Positions 633 through 56,100 of a stretch of 64,000 bases of DNA are shown here, one piece after another. The stretch's first letter is position 1; each line of letters begins with the position of its first letter. Below the pieces are notes generated by a model. The model made no database searches. It was given only the letters and a program-made list of their open reading frames with translations, and was not told where the DNA came from. Source of the DNA: Escherichia phage ECML-359; sequence record OL631482.1, one strand, 5' to 3'. A program made the translations under genes and the position numbers.

Positions 633-2612
633 ATGGCTTTATTATCCCCGGGCATTGAGCTCAAAGAAACAACGGTACAAAGCACTGTTGTTCGTAACGC
701 GACGGGTCGTGCGGCGCTGGTTGGTAAATTCCAGTGGGGCCCAGCTTTCCAGGTAACTCAAATTACAAACGAAGTTGAACTTGTTGATTTGTTTGGTGGT
801 CCGAATAATGAAACAGCAGATTACTTTATGAGTGGGATGAACTTCCTGCAATATGGTAACGACCTCCGTACTGTACGTGTTGTTAACCGTGACGAAGCTA
901 AAAACGCATCCCCTATTGCTGGCAATATTGAAACTACCATCGTAACTGCTGGTACAAACTATGCTGTCGGTGATGTTATTCAGGTTAAACACAACCAGAC
1001 TGTTGTTGAACCGGCTGGCCGTGTGACCAAGGTCGACGTTGATGGTAAAATTCAGGCAATCTTTATTCCTACCGATAAGATTATTGCATTTGCCAAAACT
1101 ATTAACCAGTATCCTAATTTAGGTAGTGCATGGACTGCAGAAGTTACGACCACTTCTTCCGGTGTATCTGGTACCATTACTGTTGGGAAAATTGTTACCG
1201 ATTCTGGCATTCTGTTGACTGAAGCAGAAAACAGTGAAGAAGCAATTACTTCCCTGGAATTCCAGGCATCACTGGCAAAATATGCAATGCCGGGTGTTGT
1301 TGCTCTTTACCCAGGCGAAATCGGTTCGACTCTGGAAGTTGAAATCGTATCTAAAGCTGAATTTGAAAAAGGCGCAGCTGCAAATCTGAATATTTTCCCG
1401 GGCGGCGGAACGCGTGCTTCTGTGGCTCGTGCCGTGTTTAACTATGGCCCTCAGTCTGAAAACCAATATGCAATTATCGTTCGCCGCGATGGTGCAATCG
1501 TCGAAAACGTTGTTTTGTCTACCAAGCAGGGCGAAAAAGATGTTTACGGTAATAACATTTATCTGGATGACTACTTTGCAAAAGGTACTTCCAACTACAT
1601 CTATGCAACATCTCGCAACTGGCCTGTAGGCTTCAGTGGTATCATCAATCTGTCTGGTGGTATTTCTGCAAACGATAAGATTACCGCTGGTGATTTGATG
1701 CAAGGTTGGGACCTGTTTGCTGACCGTGAAGCACTGCATATTAACCTGCTTATCGCTGGTGCAGTAGCTGGTGAAGGTGATGCGACTGCTTCCACTGTTC
1801 AGAAACACGTGGTTTCTATTGCTGACGAACGTCAGGATTGTCTGGCATTTATTTCCCCGCCGAAAGGTCTGTTGGTTAACGTTCCTCTGACCCGTGCAGT
1901 GGATAACCTGATTGACTGGCGTACAGGTGCTGGCGCATTTGATACTGATAACATGAATATCAGCACGACTTATGCAGCGATTGATGGCAACTATAAATAT
2001 CAGTATGATAAATATAATGACGTTAACCGTTGGGTTCCTCTGGCAGCTGATATGGCTGGTCTGTGTGCTCGTACTGATGACGTTTCTCAGCCTTGGATGT
2101 CTCCGGCCGGTTATAACCGCGGTCAGATTCTGAACGTTCTGAAATTGGCTGTTGAACCACGTCAGACCCAACGTGACCGCATGTATCAAGAAGCTATCAA
2201 CCCGGTTGTTGGTTTCGCAGGTGGTGATGGTTTTGTTCTGTATGGTGATAAGACTGCAACTAAAGTTCCATCTCCGATGGACCATATTAACGTTCGTCGT
2301 CTTACGAATATGCTGAAGAAAAATATCGGTGATGCATCTAAATATAAACTGTTTGAGCTTAACGATAACTTCACTCGTGCATCATTCCGTATGGAAACTT
2401 CTCAATACTTGGATGGTATTCGTGCACTTGGTGGCATTTATGAAGGTCGTGTAGTTTGTGATACTACTAACAACACCCCGTCGGTCATAGACCGAAATGA
2501 GTTTGTTGCTAGCATTTATTTTAAACCTGCACGCAGCATCAACTACATCACTCTTAACTTCGTAGCCACTAGCACTGGTGCTGATTTTGATGAGCTGATT
2601 GGGCCACAATAA
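633..2612 (+). CDS. 18: Tail sheath protein gp18
   Basis: 659 aa, same length as T4 gp18; N-terminus MALLSPGIELKETT...; preceded by late-promoter TATAAATA. Confidence 0.95.
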   Translation: MALLSPGIELKETTVQSTVVRNATGRAALVGKFQWGPAFQVTQITNEVELVDLFGGPNNETADYFMSGMNFLQYGNDLRTVRVVNRDEAKNASPIAGNIETTIVTAGTNYAVGDVIQVKHNQTVVEPAGRVTKVDVDGKIQAIFIPTDKIIAFAKTINQYPNLGSAWTAEVTTTSSGVSGTITVGKIVTDSGILLTEAENSEEAITSLEFQASLAKYAMPGVVALYPGEIGSTLEVEIVSKAEFEKGAAANLNIFPGGGTRASVARAVFNYGPQSENQYAIIVRRDGAIVENVVLSTKQGEKDVYGNNIYLDDYFAKGTSNYIYATSRNWPVGFSGIINLSGGISANDKITAGDLMQGWDLFADREALHINLLIAGAVAGEGDATASTVQKHVVSIADERQDCLAFISPPKGLLVNVPLTRAVDNLIDWRTGAGAFDTDNMNISTTYAAIDGNYKYQYDKYNDVNRWVPLAADMAGLCARTDDVSQPWMSPAGYNRGQILNVLKLAVEPRQTQRDRMYQEAINPVVGFAGGDGFVLYGDKTATKVPSPMDHINVRRLTNMLKKNIGDASKYKLFELNDNFTRASFRMETSQYLDGIRALGGIYEGRVVCDTTNNTPSVIDRNEFVASIYFKPARSINYITLNFVATSTGADFDELIGPQ

Positions 2613-2756
2613 TTATCATCGCTTAGAATGAATTAATCAGTTAGAAACCGTAGAACCATTATACAGTGGTATAAATAAAAGCATAATCGGTTCTACGGGC
2701 TCCTGTGGTTGATTCTGGGAAGCCATTATCTTGAGATGATGAATCATATTACCTAG

Positions 2757-2764
2757 TATAAATA
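2757..2764 (+). promoter_or_regulatory. Late promoter for gene 19
   Basis: TATAAATA about 50 nt upstream of the gp19 ATG; a second TATAAATA lies at about 2670-2677. Confidence 0.7.
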
Positions 2765-2816
2765 CATGCATCAGGGACGCGTTCGCGCGACCTGTGTCTA
2801 TAAAGAGGATTCCTTA

Positions 2817-3308
2817 ATGGAGTTGACCGATATCACACGCGCTTTCGAATCCGGCGACTTTGCTCGCCCTAACCTGTTCGAAGTCGAAATCCCATTCCTG
2901 GGTAAAAACTTTGCTTTCCATTGTAAAGCAGCCCCGATGCCTGCTGGCATTGTAGAAAAAGTTCCTGTCGGTTACATGAACCGTAAAATCAACGTTGCGG
3001 GCGACCGTACATTTGATGACTGGACTATTACGATTTATAACGACGATGCTCATAAAGTTCGTCAAGCAATTGTTGATTGGCAAAACCTGTGTCACGGTAT
3101 GACTAACGAAATCACCGGTGCAGCTCCTGCTGATTATAAGAAAACTGCTACTGTCCGCCAGTTCCATCGTGATGGCAAGACCGTTACGAAAGAAGTTGTT
3201 ATTACCGGCATGTGGCCAACCAACGTTGGGGAAGTCCAGATGGATTGGGACAGTAACAACGAAATTGAAACGTTCGAAGCAACGTTTGCAATTGACTGGT
3301 GGGAATAA
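2817..3308 (+). CDS. 19: Tail tube protein gp19
   Basis: 163 aa when started at internal ATG (MELTDITRAFESGDFARPNLF...); the ORF-track start at 2766 is upstream of the TATAAATA promoter and unlikely to be used. Confidence 0.9.
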   Translation: MELTDITRAFESGDFARPNLFEVEIPFLGKNFAFHCKAAPMPAGIVEKVPVGYMNRKINVAGDRTFDDWTITIYNDDAHKVRQAIVDWQNLCHGMTNEITGAAPADYKKTATVRQFHRDGKTVTKEVVITGMWPTNVGEVQMDWDSNNEIETFEATFAIDWWE

Positions 3309-11697: not shown

Positions 11698-11720
11698 GGG
11701 CCTTGCGGCCCTTTTTTATT
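11698..11720 (+). terminator. Intrinsic terminator after the gp24 paralog
   Basis: GGGCC-ttgc-GGCCC followed by TTTTTTATT. Confidence 0.8.
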
Positions 11721-12723
11721 CACTAATTAATGCAATCCATACATGTCTTAATGTTTCTTTTACATTTGCGATAAGTTGCTTTTTAACTTCAACAGGATTT
11801 TCTGTCTGGGTTAATTCAAGTCCTTCACGACCCGCTTCTTCCAGGATATCCTGAACAGTCAAACCCATTACCTTCCCAAAATCCTTCGGCGATACTTCCC
11901 CAATCTTACTGATAACATTGTTAATACGGTTGACAGTCACATAATCAGTAAACTTCCATAAAACATCCAGGTCTTCCTGGGACAACACAACAGCAGCCTT
12001 AATAGGCTTATCAGACTTTTTCTTTTCGCTGAATTTAGAGTTCTTACATTTAATCGCTACACGCTCGCCGTTAGGTAACCATGCAGGAACATCAGGTTTT
12101 AATACAAATCCTTCAGCAGTGAATACTTTACCTTCCACCTTTGCATCAAAATCAGTGGTATTTGCTGTAGTCAATCCTGCGTTATCCACTGTAAAATTGT
12201 AATCAGGGACCACAGAATCCAGGTCATTAGGGAGCTTAATCAAGTCTTCAAAGCTTCCGGTAGCCAGGCGCGGAGCAACTTTAAACTTATGAATAATACA
12301 AAAGGCTTCCATCAGTGTGTCAGTCAGGACGGATTCAGTTCCATCTTCTTTAGTAACGCGAATATCAAACACATAAAAATCTTTATCACCGTAATCCACA
12401 TTCTTCTGGATACCTGCCCCGGCAAACTCACCATAAATCTGATATGCCTGGTAATTAATATCCTGCAAAAGTTTCTGCACAGATTTAATAGAATCTGCGT
12501 AGTTCTTTAATACAATTTCATAACCATAGAAATCTTCTGCAGGTAGGATAGGTCCAGTGCGTTTCGCGCATGTCACATTGTCTTGTTCAATGATTAATGA
12601 AAAGTTGGTACCATGAATTTTCTCACGAGCTACCCATTCACCGCTGGTGAAGCCTTGCAGGCGAATCTTTTCAATGAACTTGTTATTATAGTGATTTTCA
12701 AGGCTGTTGTATTTCTTAAACAT
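11716..12723 (-). CDS. rnlB: RNA ligase 2 (RnlB)
   Basis: 335 aa; [19 protein letters not shown]...[10 protein letters not shown] (nucleotidyltransferase lysine motif KxHGxN) matches T4 Rnl2 as recalled. Confidence 0.9.
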
Positions 12724-12820
12724 AATCTCTCACTTTTGATGTTATAAATATCATTATAAATTAGACCCGCTATACTTTCTTTCTTTGAAAGGAATTAATA
12801 GTCACAAAGGGTCTAGAACC

Positions 12821-12846
12821 ATTATACCGCATTTTTATTTGAAGCA
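12821..12846 (-). promoter_or_regulatory. Middle-type (MotA-box) promoter upstream of rnlB
   Basis: Minus strand reads TGCTTCAaataaaaatgcgGTATAATGGTTCTAGACCC: MotA-box-like TGCTTCA about 12 nt upstream of TATAAT; coordinates approximate. Confidence 0.6.
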
Positions 12847-18111: not shown

Positions 18112-18139
18112 AATGTATCCAATGTAAGGGTCTAGAACC

Positions 18140-18166
18140 ATTATACAGCCATAAAATTAAAGCATT
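18140..18166 (-). promoter_or_regulatory. Middle-type (MotA-box) promoter upstream of uvsY
   Basis: Minus strand reads aaTGCTTTAattttatggctgTATAATGGTTCTAGACCC; same cassette as at rnlB. Confidence 0.6.
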
Positions 18167-19178: not shown

Positions 19179-19199
19179 AATTTGCTCCTTTACTGTATT

Positions 19200-19207
19200 T
19201 ATAAATA
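19200..19207 (+). promoter_or_regulatory. Late promoter for gene 51 (baseplate hub operon)
   Basis: TATAAATA about 25 nt upstream of the gp51 ATG. Confidence 0.75.
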
Positions 19208-29464: not shown

Positions 29465-29746
29465 TTAGTCGTTGACTCTATTATATGCCACGTCTTCCAA
29501 AAGCAAATCCAGCCGCTTATGATAAGTGAACACAAATTTAGTTGCCCCGTCTGGTTTCATTTTGGTCATGAAGTGAATATAGATAAATCCTTGCTCAACG
29601 CATTCACGCCAAACGGGGTTATCTTTAGCCGGATTAATATCAAACGAGTAATTATGATTCACATGACGAATAAACTGATTAACATGACCGTAATCCATCG
29701 TGGTAGTTGGACCATGGTCAGAAATAGTATGAACGACAAACATCAA
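29465..29746 (-). CDS. Hypothetical protein (T4 30.1 position)
   Basis: 93 aa; 4-nt overlap with the upstream ORF. Confidence 0.5.
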   Translation of the reverse strand: MMFVVHTISDHGPTTTMDYGHVNQFIRHVNHNYSFDINPAKDNPVWRECVEQGFIYIHFMTKMKPDGATKFVFTYHKRLDLLLEDVAYNRVND

Positions 29747-36608: not shown

Positions 36609-36654
36609 TTCTTTTCTCGCTTAGTTATTGGGGTTATCCAAAGGACCTAGACCC

Positions 36655-36681
36655 ATTATAACATAAAATTTTTAAAGCGTT
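36655..36681 (-). promoter_or_regulatory. Middle-type promoter cassette upstream of ORF 36330-36608
   Basis: Minus strand reads CGCTTTAaaaattttatgtTATAATGGGTCTAGGTCC; variant of the rnlB/uvsY cassette. Confidence 0.5.
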
Positions 36682-53146: not shown

Positions 53147-56100
53147 ATGGCCGATATTTTAAAACCAGCATTCAGAGCAACATCCGGTCTCGATGCTGCT
53201 GGTGAGAAAGTCATTAATGTCGCAAAAGCTGATTACTCAGTTTTATCAGACGGCGTTAACGTAGGTTTCTTTATAGAAGAAAACACAGTTCAACAATATG
53301 ATGCAACACGCGGATACAAAAAGAACTTTGCAGTTATTAATGATAACCGTATTTGGGTTGCTCAACGTGATATTCCGGCACCAGCTGGAGCATTTACCCC
53401 TCAGTATTGGTTAGCAACTCGTACTGACCCGAAATGGGAAACTGTTGCATCTCCAACTCGTCAGCTTAGCTCCGGGGAATTTATCGCAGTCGACTCAGCT
53501 GCAAGCTTTACCACATTTACATTGCCTCCGAACCCGACTGATGGTGATACCATCGTTATTAAAGATATCGGCGGTAATACCGGTTATAATGAAATTAAAA
53601 TCCAGTCAAGCAACGTGCCTGGCCAAGGTAACCAAAAGATTGTTCGCTTTGGTAATCAGTATTCAGAAGTTTTAATTACCAAACCATTCTCTTATAACAT
53701 GCTTATCTTTTCAAACCGCTTATGGCAATTTTGGGAAGCAGGTAACGAAGAACGTGGTATCAGAGTAGAACCGTCGACCGGACGTTTCCATGCACAAGCT
53801 GGCGACTTTATTATGCGTCGTTATACAACTGGTGCACCGATTACTTTCATTCTTCCTAAGTATGCAAACCAGGGTGATATTGTCAAATCTGTTGATATCG
53901 ATGGCATGGGGCCAACGTTCCACCTGATGGTTGAAACCTTTGACACCAGTTCCAGTCTTGGTAAAGCTGGCCAGCATCAAATGGAATTCCGTACCACAGG
54001 TGATGGTTTCTTCGTTTATAATGCTGCCGAAAAACTCTGGTATGTTTGGGACGGTGATTTTAAAACTCGTCTTCGCGTTATTCGCGACAGCGTTAAACTT
54101 TTACCAAACGAAAGTGTCATTGTATTTGGCGAAGATAACTCAACTCCAGCAACGATTAATATCGATTTGCCAACTAATGTTTTGCAAGGCGACATTGTTA
54201 AAATTGCATTGAACTATCTCCGTAAATCACAGACTGTTAATATAAGAGCTGCTGTTGGCGATAAGATTGCAACTGACATTAAATTACTGCAATTCCCTAA
54301 ACGTTCCGAGTATCCACCAGATACAACTTGGGTGCTGGTTGATTCATTGACCTTTAATGGCAACATCAGTTATACTCCGGTTATTGAATTATCATATGCA
54401 GAAGATACAGTGTCTGGAACAAGTTATTGGGTTGTCGCTCAGAACGTCCCGACTGTCGAACGAGTTGACTCATTAAATGATTCCACGCGTGCACGTCTTG
54501 GTGTTATTGCTCTGGCAAACCAGACTCAGGCAAACGTTGACCATGAAAATAACCCAGAAAAAGAACTCGCAATTACCCCTCAGACTTTAGCCAACCGTGT
54601 TGCTAAAGAGAACCAACGAGGCATTGCCAGAATCGCAACGACTGCCCAAGTAAATCAGAACAGTGATTTTGCATTTGTTGATGATGTAATTATTTCTCCG
54701 AAAAAACTCAATGAACGTACGGCAACAGAAACGAGACGTGGACTCGCAGAACTCGCCACACAGCAAGAAACCGATGCGGGTGTAGATGATACCACAATTA
54801 TAACTCCAAAGAAACTGCAAGCTCGCCAGGGCTCAGAATCGCTATCCGGTATTGTAACTTACGTTTCAACGACTGGTGCAACTCCTGCTGCTTCGCGTGA
54901 ATTAAATGGTACAAACGTTTATAATAAAAATACGGTTAATCTGGTTGTTTCTCCGAAAGCTCTTGACCAGTACAAAGCTACTTACACTCAACAAGGTGCG
55001 GTTATTCTTGCGGTTGAAAGTGAAGTAATCGCTGGTACTTCTCAATCTGGCTGGGCAAACGCAGTCGTTACTCCAGAAATGTTGCATCGCAAAACTGCTC
55101 TTGATTCCCGTATCGGTTTAATCGAGATTGCTACTCAGGTTGAAACAGATGCAGGAACCGATTATACCAGAGCTGTGACTCCTAAAACGTTAAATGACCG
55201 TAAAGCATCAGAAACGTTAACCGGCATAGCCGAGATTGCTACGCAATCAGAATTTGATACTGGAACTGATGATACTCGTATCTCAACTCCATTAAAAATT
55301 AAAAATAGATTTAATAATACTGCTCGTACTTCTGTTAATGCATTAAGTGGTTTAGTAGAAACAGGGACGCTCTGGGACCATTATAGCCTGAATATTCTTG
55401 AAGCAAATGAAACTCAACGTGGTACAGCAAGATTAGCGACTCAGGGTGAAGTCAATACAGGCACTGACGATAAAACAATCGTTACTCCGCTTAAATTGAT
55501 GTCGAAAAAAGCCACTGAAAACGCCGAAGGTATTGTTCGCATCGCGACAAACACAGAAGCAACAGCAGGCACATCAAAAGTCTTGGCCATTAGTCCGTCT
55601 GCGCTGAAATATATTGCCCAAACGGAAACAACTTGGGAAGCATCTGAAACACTGCGTGGATTTGTTCGTTTATCTTCCGGTGCAGCTACTTCGGCCGCAA
55701 CTACAACGACGGGCGCGGGATTTACATATGAAAATGGTGTGTATACCCCGGACCCAAGTAAACTGGTTAGCTATGCGAAATCTGGATATGCAGTTTCGCC
55801 TTACGAATTAAACCGCATATTGCAAAACTTCTTACCGATAAATGCGATGGCTGTTAATGCTGAAAAACTGGATAACCTCGATTCGACCCAGTTTATTCGT
55901 CGTGATATTGCTCAGACCGTTGAAGGCGTATTAACCCTTACTAAGCAGACAAATATCTCTGCTCCGGTTGTATCGACGAGCACTGCGGTGTTTACTGATG
56001 TAACGGCTGGTACTTCGACGTTCGGAACTGTGAATGTTGTTAATGGAACTAACAAGTGGAAAATCACTGCTCCTTCCACCGGAACGACAATGACTATTGG

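What the first reader, a model, noticed from the sequence alone, without database searches (positions are those of the whole stretch)
2647..2700. Antisense middle-promoter cassette and 10-bp inverted repeat between genes 18 and 19
In the 18-19 intergenic region a perfect 10-bp inverted repeat (CCGTAGAACC ... GGTTCTACGG, about 30 nt apart) brackets one TATAAATA late promoter. On the minus strand the same region reads GCTTTTAtttataccactgTATAATGGTTCTACGG, a copy of the middle-promoter cassette oriented to transcribe antisense into the 3' end of tail sheath gene 18. This could give an early/middle antisense RNA opposing premature late-gene expression, or the inverted repeat could form an mRNA hairpin that stabilises the gene 18 message.
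Basis: partly seen in the sequence, partly recalled or inferred. Interest (0 to 1): 0.5.

Follow-up and report, generated by a model that had tools for sequence, protein, structure and literature searches.

The report
Hairpin-nested back-to-back promoters after sheath gene
Between the tail-sheath and tail-tube genes of this T4-like phage, the usual RNA hairpin that closes the sheath message also holds a late promoter and a probably real backwards-pointing middle promoter; this is a new arrangement of well-known parts, and no transcript has been measured.

Summary
A perfect 10-bp inverted repeat (2648-2657 / 2689-2698, 31 nt apart) brackets TATAAATA (2670-2677). The minus strand reads ttaTGCTTTT-N13-TATAAT (2686->2658), a good MotA-type middle promoter pointing into gene 18. 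The window is a Gaprivervirus (VR7/VR20/SP18 group), and the genus encodes MotA and AsiA.

Two functions seem to be superimposed.

1. The repeat is this phage's version of a stable hairpin that follows gene 18 in 54 of 61 distinct T4-like 18-19 gaps, usually abutting a late promoter.
2. The antisense promoter is probably real.
   - Its TATAATGGTTCTA core is shared exactly with the PuvsY and PrnlB promoter homologs.
   - A box-N13-TATAAT module sits inside the post-18 hairpin in three MotA-encoding genera (Gaprivervirus, Dhakavirus, Marfavirus). The hairpin arms differ but stay complementary.
   - JS98 keeps the antisense -10 without the late promoter. VR26 keeps both promoters without the repeat.

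T4 has no counterpart at this position. T4 does have a precedent, P34i/oriG, an antisense middle promoter inside late gene 34.

An R-loop origin role is unlikely, because there is no strongly unstable DNA downstream. No transcript data exist, so the effect on gene 18 is inferred. Verdict: a new variant of known elements, of moderate interest.

The parts
633..2612 (+). Gene 18 (tail sheath, 659 aa). Its 3' end is the target of the putative antisense transcript.
   Evidence: ORF list. Annotated as tail sheath in near-identical phages.
2648..2657 (.). Left arm of the inverted repeat (CCGTAGAACC). On the minus strand it is GGTTCTACGG, the start region of the middle-promoter cassette.
   Evidence: Its first seven bases (GGTTCTA) are shared with the promoters at 12826 and 18145.
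2689..2698 (.). Right arm of the inverted repeat (GGTTCTACGG). [quoted passage not shown]
   Evidence: It is deleted in VR26, while the promoter core is kept.
2658..2663 (-). -10 element TATAAT of the antisense middle promoter (ATTATA on the + strand). The predicted start is near 2651 on the minus strand.
   Evidence: It is invariant in the genus. The motif CATTATAC is shared with Dhakavirus and Marfavirus.
2677..2686 (-). MotA box ttaTGCTTTT, read on the minus strand, 13 nt upstream of the -10.
   Evidence: The consensus (a/t)(a/t)(a/t)TGCTTtA placed 12 +/- 1 bp from the -10 is taken from PMC2988021.
2670..2677 (+). Late promoter TATAAATA (PL1), lying between the two arms of the repeat. The predicted start is near 2683, so its transcripts carry only the 3' arm.
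   Evidence: It is absent from the equivalent Dhakavirus hairpin.
2757..2764 (+). Second late promoter TATAAATA (PL2), proximal to gene 19.
   Evidence: T4 also has two TATAAATA sites in this gap.
2768..2797 (+). UUCG-tetraloop hairpin in the gene 19 leader.
   Evidence: Folds. Near-invariant in the genus.
2817..3308 (+). Gene 19 (tail tube, 163 aa).

Best explanation
The element is a composite piece of intergenic punctuation with two superimposed functions.

1. Hairpin. The inverted repeat is this lineage's version of the stable RNA hairpin that follows the sheath gene in almost all T4-like phages. It forms only in transcripts that read through from gene 18. Its inferred role is to protect or define the 3' end of that message. 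It has no U-run, so it is not a classical terminator.

2. Two back-to-back promoters nested in that hairpin.
- A late promoter (TATAAATA, start near 2683) fires toward gene 19. A second late promoter lies 87 nt further on.
- A MotA/AsiA-dependent middle promoter (start near 2651 on the minus strand) fires antisense into gene 18.
- The two predicted starts are about 32 bp apart and the promoter elements interdigitate, so only one RNA polymerase can occupy the site at a time.

The antisense promoter most likely makes a non-coding 'anti-late' RNA at middle times.

What is shown: the sequence features, their excess over chance, and their conservation.
What is inferred: promoter activity, the role of the hairpin, and any effect of the antisense RNA on gene 18.
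For: Hairpin:
- 54 of 61 distinct 18-19 gaps from 79 T4-like loci fold far better than shuffles (z < -2), with a hairpin a few nt after the gene 18 stop, mostly abutting TATAAATA. T4 shows the same arrangement.
- The window has no other hairpin there.
- VR26 has its own GGGGA..TCCCC hairpin after gene 18 and has lost the right arm of the repeat.
- Arms anchored on CATTATAC differ between Gaprivervirus and Marfavirus at 5 paired positions, with both partners changed.
- The Marfavirus hairpin is annotated as a terminator in PhiKpNIH-6.

Antisense promoter:
- It is one of 6 TGCTT-N13-16-TATAAT sites, all on the minus strand, against 0.39 expected.
- The 13-mer TATAATGGTTCTA is shared exactly with the PuvsY and PrnlB homologs.
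- A relaxed scan with a perfect -10 gives 12 minus-strand hits and 2 plus-strand hits in 64 kb. By my arithmetic that is about 0.006 expected per 200-nt gap.
- Box-N13-TATAAT modules occur on the antisense strand in three genera and never on the sense strand.
- All three genera encode MotA and AsiA.
- JS98 keeps the -10 and box with no TATAAATA inside the hairpin.
- VR26 keeps the core without the repeat.
- The three variable sites of the core all fall in the 6-nt spacer that belongs to no promoter element. By my post-hoc arithmetic, p is about 0.015.

Precedent: T4 oriG/P34i is an antisense middle promoter inside late gene 34. Its homolog is present in the window at 55385.
Against: - There are no transcript data for this or any related phage.
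- The repeat arms are invariant within Gaprivervirus, so there is no within-genus covariation.
- The loop is long for an RNA stabiliser (31 nt, or 20 nt with the extension), and there is no U-tract.
- The Dhakavirus inner hairpin is weak on its own, at about -5 kcal/mol.
- T4 and most T4-like phages lack the antisense promoter, so it is not essential to the group.
- The between-genus 'compensatory' comparison assumes the arms are positionally homologous.
- MotA tolerates box variation, so weak boxes such as CGCTGTA and TGCTAAA are hard to score.
Confidence: 0.55

Rival explanations
1. The antisense 'promoter' is an inactive look-alike. It would be an accidental by-product of A+T-rich late-promoter sequence, and only the hairpin and the late promoter would be functional.
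For: The MotA box overlaps the late promoter's start region, and the spacer contains the complement of TATAAATA. T4 manages without it. Nothing has been measured.
Against: - About 0.39 strict matches are expected in the whole window.
- The perfect -10 and the box spacing are conserved in three genera. In JS98 there is no late promoter at that spot to explain it.
- The cassette is identical over 13-15 nt to the PuvsY and PrnlB promoter homologs.
- Variable sites avoid all promoter elements.
Confidence: 0.2
2. The module is a replication origin of the T4 oriF/oriG type. In that model the middle-promoter transcript forms a persistent R-loop just downstream and primes leading-strand synthesis.
For: - T4 oriG is exactly an antisense middle promoter in a late gene, and oriF is PuvsY.
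- The candidate shares 15 nt around its -10 with the window's PuvsY homolog.
- The transcript has no coding target.
Against: - The defining A+T-rich unwinding element is not evident. The 50 bp downstream rank only in the least stable 20% of window segments, like non-origin PrnlB. The oriF and oriG homologs rank at 3.5% and 0.7%.
- Homologs of the promoters of both plasmid-validated T4 origins, oriF (PuvsY) and oriG (P34i), are already present in the window.
Confidence: 0.07
3. The element is a mobile promoter/stem-loop cassette of the PeSL/PmSL kind, or the leftover regulatory region of a homing-endonuclease-like gene. On this view it is kept because it mediates recombinational shuffling at this gap, not for any transcript.
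For: - The core is repeated in the genome.
- The gap is an indel hot spot. VR7-type phages carry gene 19.1 immediately upstream of the element and have a replaced 35-nt block downstream of it. VR26 has the core directly upstream of another 19.1 allele.
- PmSLs, made of a Mot box, a -10 and a stem-loop, have been described in vibriophage nt-1 (PMC4122927).
Against: - In PeSL/PmSL the stem-loop lies upstream of the promoter and a gene with a ribosome-binding site follows. Here the arms enclose the promoter and no minus-strand gene follows.
- The fixed position across three genera suggests vertical inheritance.
- Only the -10 and start region, not the whole unit, is repeated.
Confidence: 0.12
4. 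The repeat acts at the DNA level, as an operator for a dimeric protein or as a cruciform that switches the two overlapping promoters.
For: The arms flank both promoters and are nearly symmetric about TATAAATA. Arm centres are 41 bp apart, about four helical turns.
Against: - The arm sequences differ completely between genera but stay complementary. That is the signature of a nucleic-acid structure, not of a sequence-specific protein site.
- VR26 dispenses with the repeat.
- A cruciform with a 20-31-nt loop is energetically unfavourable (general knowledge).
Confidence: 0.06

Closest known systems
T4 MotA/AsiA-dependent middle promoters (sigma appropriation)
   Same: There is a MotA box ttaTGCTTTT 13 nt upstream of a perfect TATAAT and no -35 element. 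MotA and AsiA are encoded in the genus. The site lies on the strand used by all other middle-promoter-like sites in the window.
   Different: No gene follows on its strand, and it points into a late structural gene. T4 lists no middle promoter between map positions 75393 and 109763. Activity is untested.
T4 P34i / oriG, an antisense middle promoter inside late gene 34 whose RNA primes replication
   Same: It is a middle promoter antisense to a late gene with a non-coding transcript. It has a similar -10/start region (TATAATGGTCCCAGAG against TATAATGGTTCTACGG).
   Different: No strongly unstable unwinding element lies downstream. The site is in a gap between genes, not inside a gene, and is nested in a hairpin together with a late promoter.
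Hairpin-plus-late-promoter punctuation between T4-type late genes
   Same: A stable hairpin directly after the gene 18 stop, associated with TATAAATA, is found in 54 of 61 T4-like gaps, including that of T4.
   Different: Usually the hairpin is short and G+C-rich, has a tetraloop, and lies just upstream of the promoter. Here the promoter sits inside a 31-nt loop that also carries an antisense promoter.
Late promoter placed inside a regulatory hairpin, as for T4 I-TevI, segB, e and soc (PMC2988022)
   Same: Transcripts from the embedded late promoter lack the 5' arm, so the hairpin forms only in longer read-through transcripts. The VR7 gene 19.1 shows the classical form of this design.
   Different: No ribosome-binding site or ORF is sequestered by, or follows, the 3' arm.
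PeSL/PmSL composite promoter-terminator cassettes of T4-like phages (PMC2839356, PMC4122927)
   Same: It combines a promoter with a stem-loop. The promoter core is repeated in the genome. It lies next to an indel hot spot.
   Different: The stem-loop encloses the promoter rather than preceding it. No gene lies downstream. The position is conserved across genera.
'Anti-late RNA' of T4 and antisense transcription of T4 gene 32
   Same: This is RNA complementary to the message of another temporal class, made from the opposite strand. Basis: my own knowledge, plus the title of Belin et al. 1987 as cited in PMC2988021.
   Different: No defined promoter at the 18-19 gap has been described for T4. 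The function of anti-late RNA was never established.

Membership tests
MotA-dependent middle promoter | A MotA box (a/t)(a/t)(a/t)TGCTTtA centred near -30 | tested here: met
   ttaTGCTTTT matches 9 of 10 positions; the last A is a T. The same box occurs at the gene-proximal promoter at 29485. The consensus is from PMC2988021.
MotA-dependent middle promoter | An excellent sigma-70 -10 element placed 12 +/- 1 bp from the box | tested here: met
   Perfect TATAAT with a 13-nt spacer.
MotA-dependent middle promoter | MotA and AsiA encoded by the phage | tested here: met
   asiA and motA are annotated in VR20, whose 18-19 gap is 98.5% identical to the window's. They are also annotated in JS98 and Marfa. 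The window itself ends where asiA is expected (directly after the holin gene t, as in VR20), so the gene would be cut by the window end; not checked by translation.
MotA-dependent middle promoter | MotA/AsiA-dependent transcript start in vivo or in vitro | not testable with these tools
   No transcript data were found.
T4 late promoter | TATAAATA at -13 to -6, with no -35 element | tested here: met
   Exact TATAAATA at 2670-2677. The window has 20 such sites against 4.45 expected.
oriF/oriG-type R-loop origin | A middle-mode promoter | tested here: met
   See the middle-promoter rows above. The definition comes from PMC3016281.
oriF/oriG-type R-loop origin | An A+T-rich DNA unwinding element just downstream of the promoter | tested here: not met
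   The 50 bp downstream are less stable than only 80% of window segments. The oriF and oriG homologs reach the least stable 3.5% and 0.7%. This is a crude nearest-neighbour proxy.
oriF/oriG-type R-loop origin | Origin activity (autonomous plasmid replication, early copy-number peak) | not testable with these tools
   This needs an experiment.
Intrinsic (rho-independent) terminator | A G+C-rich hairpin with a short loop, followed by a U-run | tested here: not met
   The loop is 31 nt and the 3' arm is followed by GCTCCTGTGG. The repeat was not called by the terminator scan.
Hairpin-gated late gene (I-TevI/e/soc type) | [quoted passage not shown] | tested here: not met
   There is no Shine-Dalgarno sequence or ORF at or after 2689-2698. 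Gene 19 starts 119 nt further on, with its own leader.
PeSL/PmSL cassette | A stem-loop immediately upstream of the promoter, followed by a Shine-Dalgarno sequence and the start of a gene; many copies per genome | tested here: not met
   The arms enclose the promoter and no gene follows. The 30-nt core is unique in the window; only the 13-mer around the -10 recurs, 3 times.
Rfam RNA families | A match to any curated covariance model | tested here: not met
   No hit at E <= 1 in 2300-3100 on either strand.

The most novel reading that the evidence does not exclude
The hairpin-nested antisense middle promoter is a conserved regulatory device of a clade of T4-like phages (Gaprivervirus, Dhakavirus, Marfavirus). 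It would use a dedicated middle-time antisense RNA, or the act of antisense transcription itself, to time or dose expression of the tail sheath gene. The sense-strand hairpin would control access to the complementary region. Alternatively, it is an undescribed third R-loop origin. Either reading would give the old, unexplained 'anti-late RNA' of T-even phages a defined promoter that can be mutated.
Probability: 0.15. Interest if true: 0.6.

Novelty: new variant of a known kind. Interest (0 to 1): 0.4.

Why it matters
RNA complementary to late messages, made before late genes switch on, was seen in T-even phages decades ago. As far as I know it was never tied to defined promoters or to a function.

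This site is compact and conserved: a consensus middle promoter with no gene to serve, pointing into an abundant structural gene, and locked inside that gene's 3' hairpin. That makes it easy to mutate and test.

It also shows that the post-gene hairpins of T4-like late operons can host promoters on both strands. This matters for annotation: some records call a 44-aa ORF across this element, and one calls the Marfavirus hairpin a terminator. If the promoter proves silent, the finding reduces to an ordinary hairpin plus late promoter.

Tried and rejected
- **Coding target for the antisense promoter.** The 338-aa antisense ORF inside gene 18 (1269..2285) is not conserved. The longest open stretch is 148 codons in VR25 and 50 in T4. 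The first AUG after the predicted start gives 16 codons by my reading of the sequence, with no Shine-Dalgarno sequence.
- **The 44-aa ORF 2637..2771(-), annotated in phage P8.** It has no Pfam hit. It lies across two late promoters. A 2-nt indel in VR7-type phages would shift its frame. It is probably spurious.
- **Known RNA family.** None was found.
- **Small alternative terminator-like hairpin at 2693-2708.** Its pairing is not conserved in VR25 or VR7.
- **Inner extension of the stem (ATTAT/ATAAT).** It is disrupted by the TC insertion in VR7-type phages.
- **More diverged homologs, to test covariation in the arms.**
  - The IMG/VR pattern scan returned only VR20, VR25 and VR26.
  - The metagenome scan with a looser pattern returned chance hits in A+T-rich DNA.
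- **Origin hypothesis.** There is no unwinding element downstream.
- **Literature.** I found no promoter maps or strand-specific transcriptomes for these genera. Miller et al. 2003 is not held in the library.
- **Exhaustive local hairpin scan.** The first script timed out. It was replaced by whole-segment folds.

Full report
**What the window is.** Megablast of 2300-3100 finds 99.6-91% identical sequence in phages of the genus Gaprivervirus (VR7, VR20, VR25, VR26, SP18, Yersinia phage P8 and others). There the flanking genes are annotated as tail sheath (gene 18) and tail tube (gene 19). In the window, gene 18 is 633..2612 and gene 19 is 2817..3308. The gap between them is 204 nt.

**Check of the observation.**
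- The repeat is exact: CCGTAGAACC (2648-2657) and GGTTCTACGG (2689-2698), with 31 nt between the arms.
- TATAAATA lies at 2670-2677, within a nucleotide of the centre of the repeat.
- Pairing extends by five A-U pairs across a bulged C. As RNA the + strand folds at -19.5 kcal/mol (z = -3.6) and the - strand at -25.9 kcal/mol (z = -6.2). No shuffle out of 200 folds as well in either case.
- A 10-bp perfect repeat within 45 nt is not rare in 64 kb. By my estimate about 2 are expected, and 11 repeats of 10 nt or more were found. The case for function therefore rests on position and comparison.

**The minus-strand promoter.**
- The published consensus for T4 middle promoters is (a/t)(a/t)(a/t)TGCTTtA placed 12 +/- 1 bp from TAtaaT, with a stringent -10 and a tolerant box (PMC2988021).
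- The site reads ttaTGCTTTT-N13-TATAAT.
- TGCTT-N13-16-TATAAT occurs six times in the window, all on the minus strand, against 0.39 expected.
- By position and sequence, three of the other five are homologs of mapped T4 middle promoters (T4 list):
  - PrnlB (12826) lies upstream of the rnlB-sized ORF 11716..12723(-), as in T4.
  - PuvsY/oriF (18145) lies between the gene 25 and uvsY equivalents.
  - P34i/oriG (55385) lies inside gene 34 and is nearly identical to T4.
- The 13-mer TATAATGGTTCTA is shared exactly by the 18-19 site, PuvsY and PrnlB, and occurs nowhere else. So 'copy of a cassette' is accurate.
- The left arm of the repeat is simply the start region of that cassette.
- VR20, whose gap is 98.5% identical to the window's, encodes AsiA and MotA.

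**Conservation within the genus.**
- The gap matches 33 records, all of them the phages of this group; every one whose taxonomy I checked is a Gaprivervirus.
- In an alignment of 11 representatives, the arms, both promoters and the box are invariant. The only variable core sites (2664, 2665, 2668) lie in the 6-nt spacer that belongs to no element. By my post-hoc arithmetic, p is about 0.015.
- Two natural variants are informative.
  - VR7-type phages carry an extra gene, 19.1, between gene 18 and the element. They also have a wholly different 35-nt block downstream of it, yet the element itself is unchanged.
  - VR26 has its own short hairpin after gene 18 and has lost the right arm of the repeat. 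It keeps CCATTATAC..TATAAATAAAAGCATAA, that is, both promoters.
- The repeat is therefore dispensable for whatever conserves the promoter core. It is dispensable precisely where another post-18 hairpin exists.

**Comparison across T4-like phages.** I fetched 79 loci encoding gene 19 relatives, at 100% down to 35% identity.
- A hairpin after gene 18 is close to universal. Of 61 distinct gaps, 54 fold much better than shuffles (median z = -3.5), with a G+C-rich hairpin a few nucleotides after the stop, usually abutting TATAAATA. T4 shows the same arrangement. The window has no other hairpin there. The inverted repeat is therefore best read as the local version of this conserved punctuation.
- T4 and most other phages have no antisense promoter at this position. 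T4's list of about 60 middle promoters has none between 75393 and 109763.
- A relaxed scan finds an antisense box-N13-TATAAT in exactly three clades, and nothing on the sense strand:
  - Gaprivervirus (ttaTGCTTTT);
  - Dhakavirus, the JS98 group (gtaCGCTGTA, with a TGg extended -10);
  - Marfavirus, the Klebsiella phages F48 and Marfa (tatTGCTAAA).
- In the window the same relaxed criterion with a perfect -10 gives 12 minus-strand and 2 plus-strand hits. Background is therefore about 0.006 per 200-nt gap. CGCTT boxes are common among the minus-strand hits.
- All three genera encode MotA and AsiA.
- In each genus the -10 lies inside the long hairpin after gene 18. The shared motif is CATTATAC, directly after the 5' arm.
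- The arms differ between genera yet stay paired. Anchored on that motif, five positions change on both sides between Gaprivervirus and Marfavirus.
- CATTATAC is partly paired in Marfavirus and unpaired elsewhere. Its conservation is therefore better explained as a DNA -10 element than as an RNA loop.
- JS98 has no TATAAATA inside the hairpin. The antisense -10 is thus not a by-product of the late promoter, and the late promoter in the loop is specific to Gaprivervirus.

**How it probably works.**
- Read-through transcripts from gene 18 contain both arms and can fold. Transcripts from the embedded late promoter (start near 2683) and from the antisense promoter (start near 2651) each contain only one arm.
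- The two starts are about 32 bp apart and divergent. The MotA box overlaps the late start region, and the late TATAAATA lies in the middle-promoter spacer. Occupancy must therefore be mutually exclusive, although the two classes act at different times.
- The antisense RNA has no plausible coding capacity and no strong terminator downstream. It would be a non-coding RNA complementary to the 3' part of the gene 18 message.

**Rival readings.**
- R-loop origin. An oriF/oriG-type origin needs a middle promoter plus an A+T-rich unwinding element (PMC3016281). T4's own annotation confirms that the oriG primer RNA runs opposite to gene 34. However, the 50 bp downstream of the 18-19 promoter rank only in the least stable 20% of window segments. 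That is like non-origin PrnlB, whereas the oriF and oriG homologs reach 3.5% and 0.7%. I rate this at about 0.07.
- Mobile promoter/stem-loop cassette (PeSL/PmSL; PMC4122927). This fits the repeated core and the neighbouring indels. It does not fit the geometry, the lack of a downstream gene, or the fixed position across genera.
- Protein operator. This is disfavoured because the arms covary rather than keep their sequence.
- Hairpin-gated late gene of the I-TevI type (PMC2988022). The promoter-in-hairpin logic is shared, but no ribosome-binding site is sequestered.
- No Rfam family matches.

**Limits.**
- Nothing here shows a transcript. I found no strand-specific transcriptome or promoter map for these genera.
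- Within Gaprivervirus the arms never vary. Covariation comes only from between-genus comparison, which assumes positional homology.
- Searches for more diverged copies gave nothing useful.

**Verdict.**
The promoter call and the hairpin call are both reasonable and compatible. The proposed regulatory effect is untested.
- The parts are all known kinds. The nested arrangement, conserved in three genera and absent from T4, appears to be undescribed.
- I rate it a new variant of a known kind, with interest 0.4.

Noticed in passing
L001 (VR7) 681-1286; L003 (VR26) 820-1503; window 2703-2737: The 18-19 gap is an insertion hot spot. VR7-type phages carry gene 19.1 (phrog_5104, with a weak endonuclease VII-like match) between gene 18 and the element. 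That gene has its own late promoter embedded in a hairpin (GCGCGTA..TACGCGC). The same phages have a completely different 35-nt block in place of window 2703-2737. VR26 carries another 19.1 allele downstream of the promoter core. The pattern looks like a free-standing homing-endonuclease-type gene, with the replaced block perhaps marking its target.
   Followed up: partly
window 2768-2797: A very stable UUCG-tetraloop hairpin (CGCG-UUCG-CGCG, with outer pairs) lies in the gene 19 leader, just after the second late promoter. It is nearly invariant in the genus. The Dhakavirus and Marfavirus leaders carry different hairpins at the same place.
   Followed up: partly
window 12814-12826, 18133-18145, 36648-36660 (minus strand): Several middle promoters share a conserved start region, TATAATGG(T/G)TCTAG(A/G)(C/T)CC. 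These are the PuvsY/oriF and PrnlB homologs and the site at 36660. T4 PuvsY has the related GAATCTAAGTCC. The region is partly palindromic (TCTAGA). Its role is unknown.
   Followed up: partly
window 12743-12750 (+) and 12814-12846 (-): A plus-strand TATAAATA in the rnlB-24.2 gap faces the PrnlB middle promoter. The two predicted transcripts would converge and overlap by about 60 nt. The late one would run antisense to gene 24.2.
   Followed up: no
window 19196-19207: Two TATAAATA motifs overlap on opposite strands (TATTTATAAATA) between divergent genes. This looks like a compact bidirectional late promoter.
   Followed up: no
window 55273-55405 (minus strand): This is a clear homolog of T4 P34i/oriG inside gene 34, with a nearly identical promoter. 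An A+T-rich stretch 50-100 nt downstream ranks in the least stable 0.7% of 50-bp segments of the window.
   Followed up: partly
window 2637-2771 (-): A 44-aa ORF that phage P8 (and apparently UPEC07 and pEC-M719-6WT.2) annotates as a hypothetical protein lies across the repeat and both late promoters. It has no family match. The 2-nt indel of VR7-type phages would shift its frame. It is probably an annotation artefact.
   Followed up: yes
window 1269-2285 (-): A 338-aa ORF runs antisense inside gene 18. The open stretch shrinks to 148 codons in VR25 and 50 in T4, so it is a chance open frame.
   Followed up: yes
window, minus strand (e.g. 35243, 36660, 45760, 50887, 52286): Five of the twelve middle-promoter-like sites with a perfect -10 have CGCTT rather than TGCTT boxes. 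This suggests a slightly shifted MotA-box preference in this genus.
   Followed up: no
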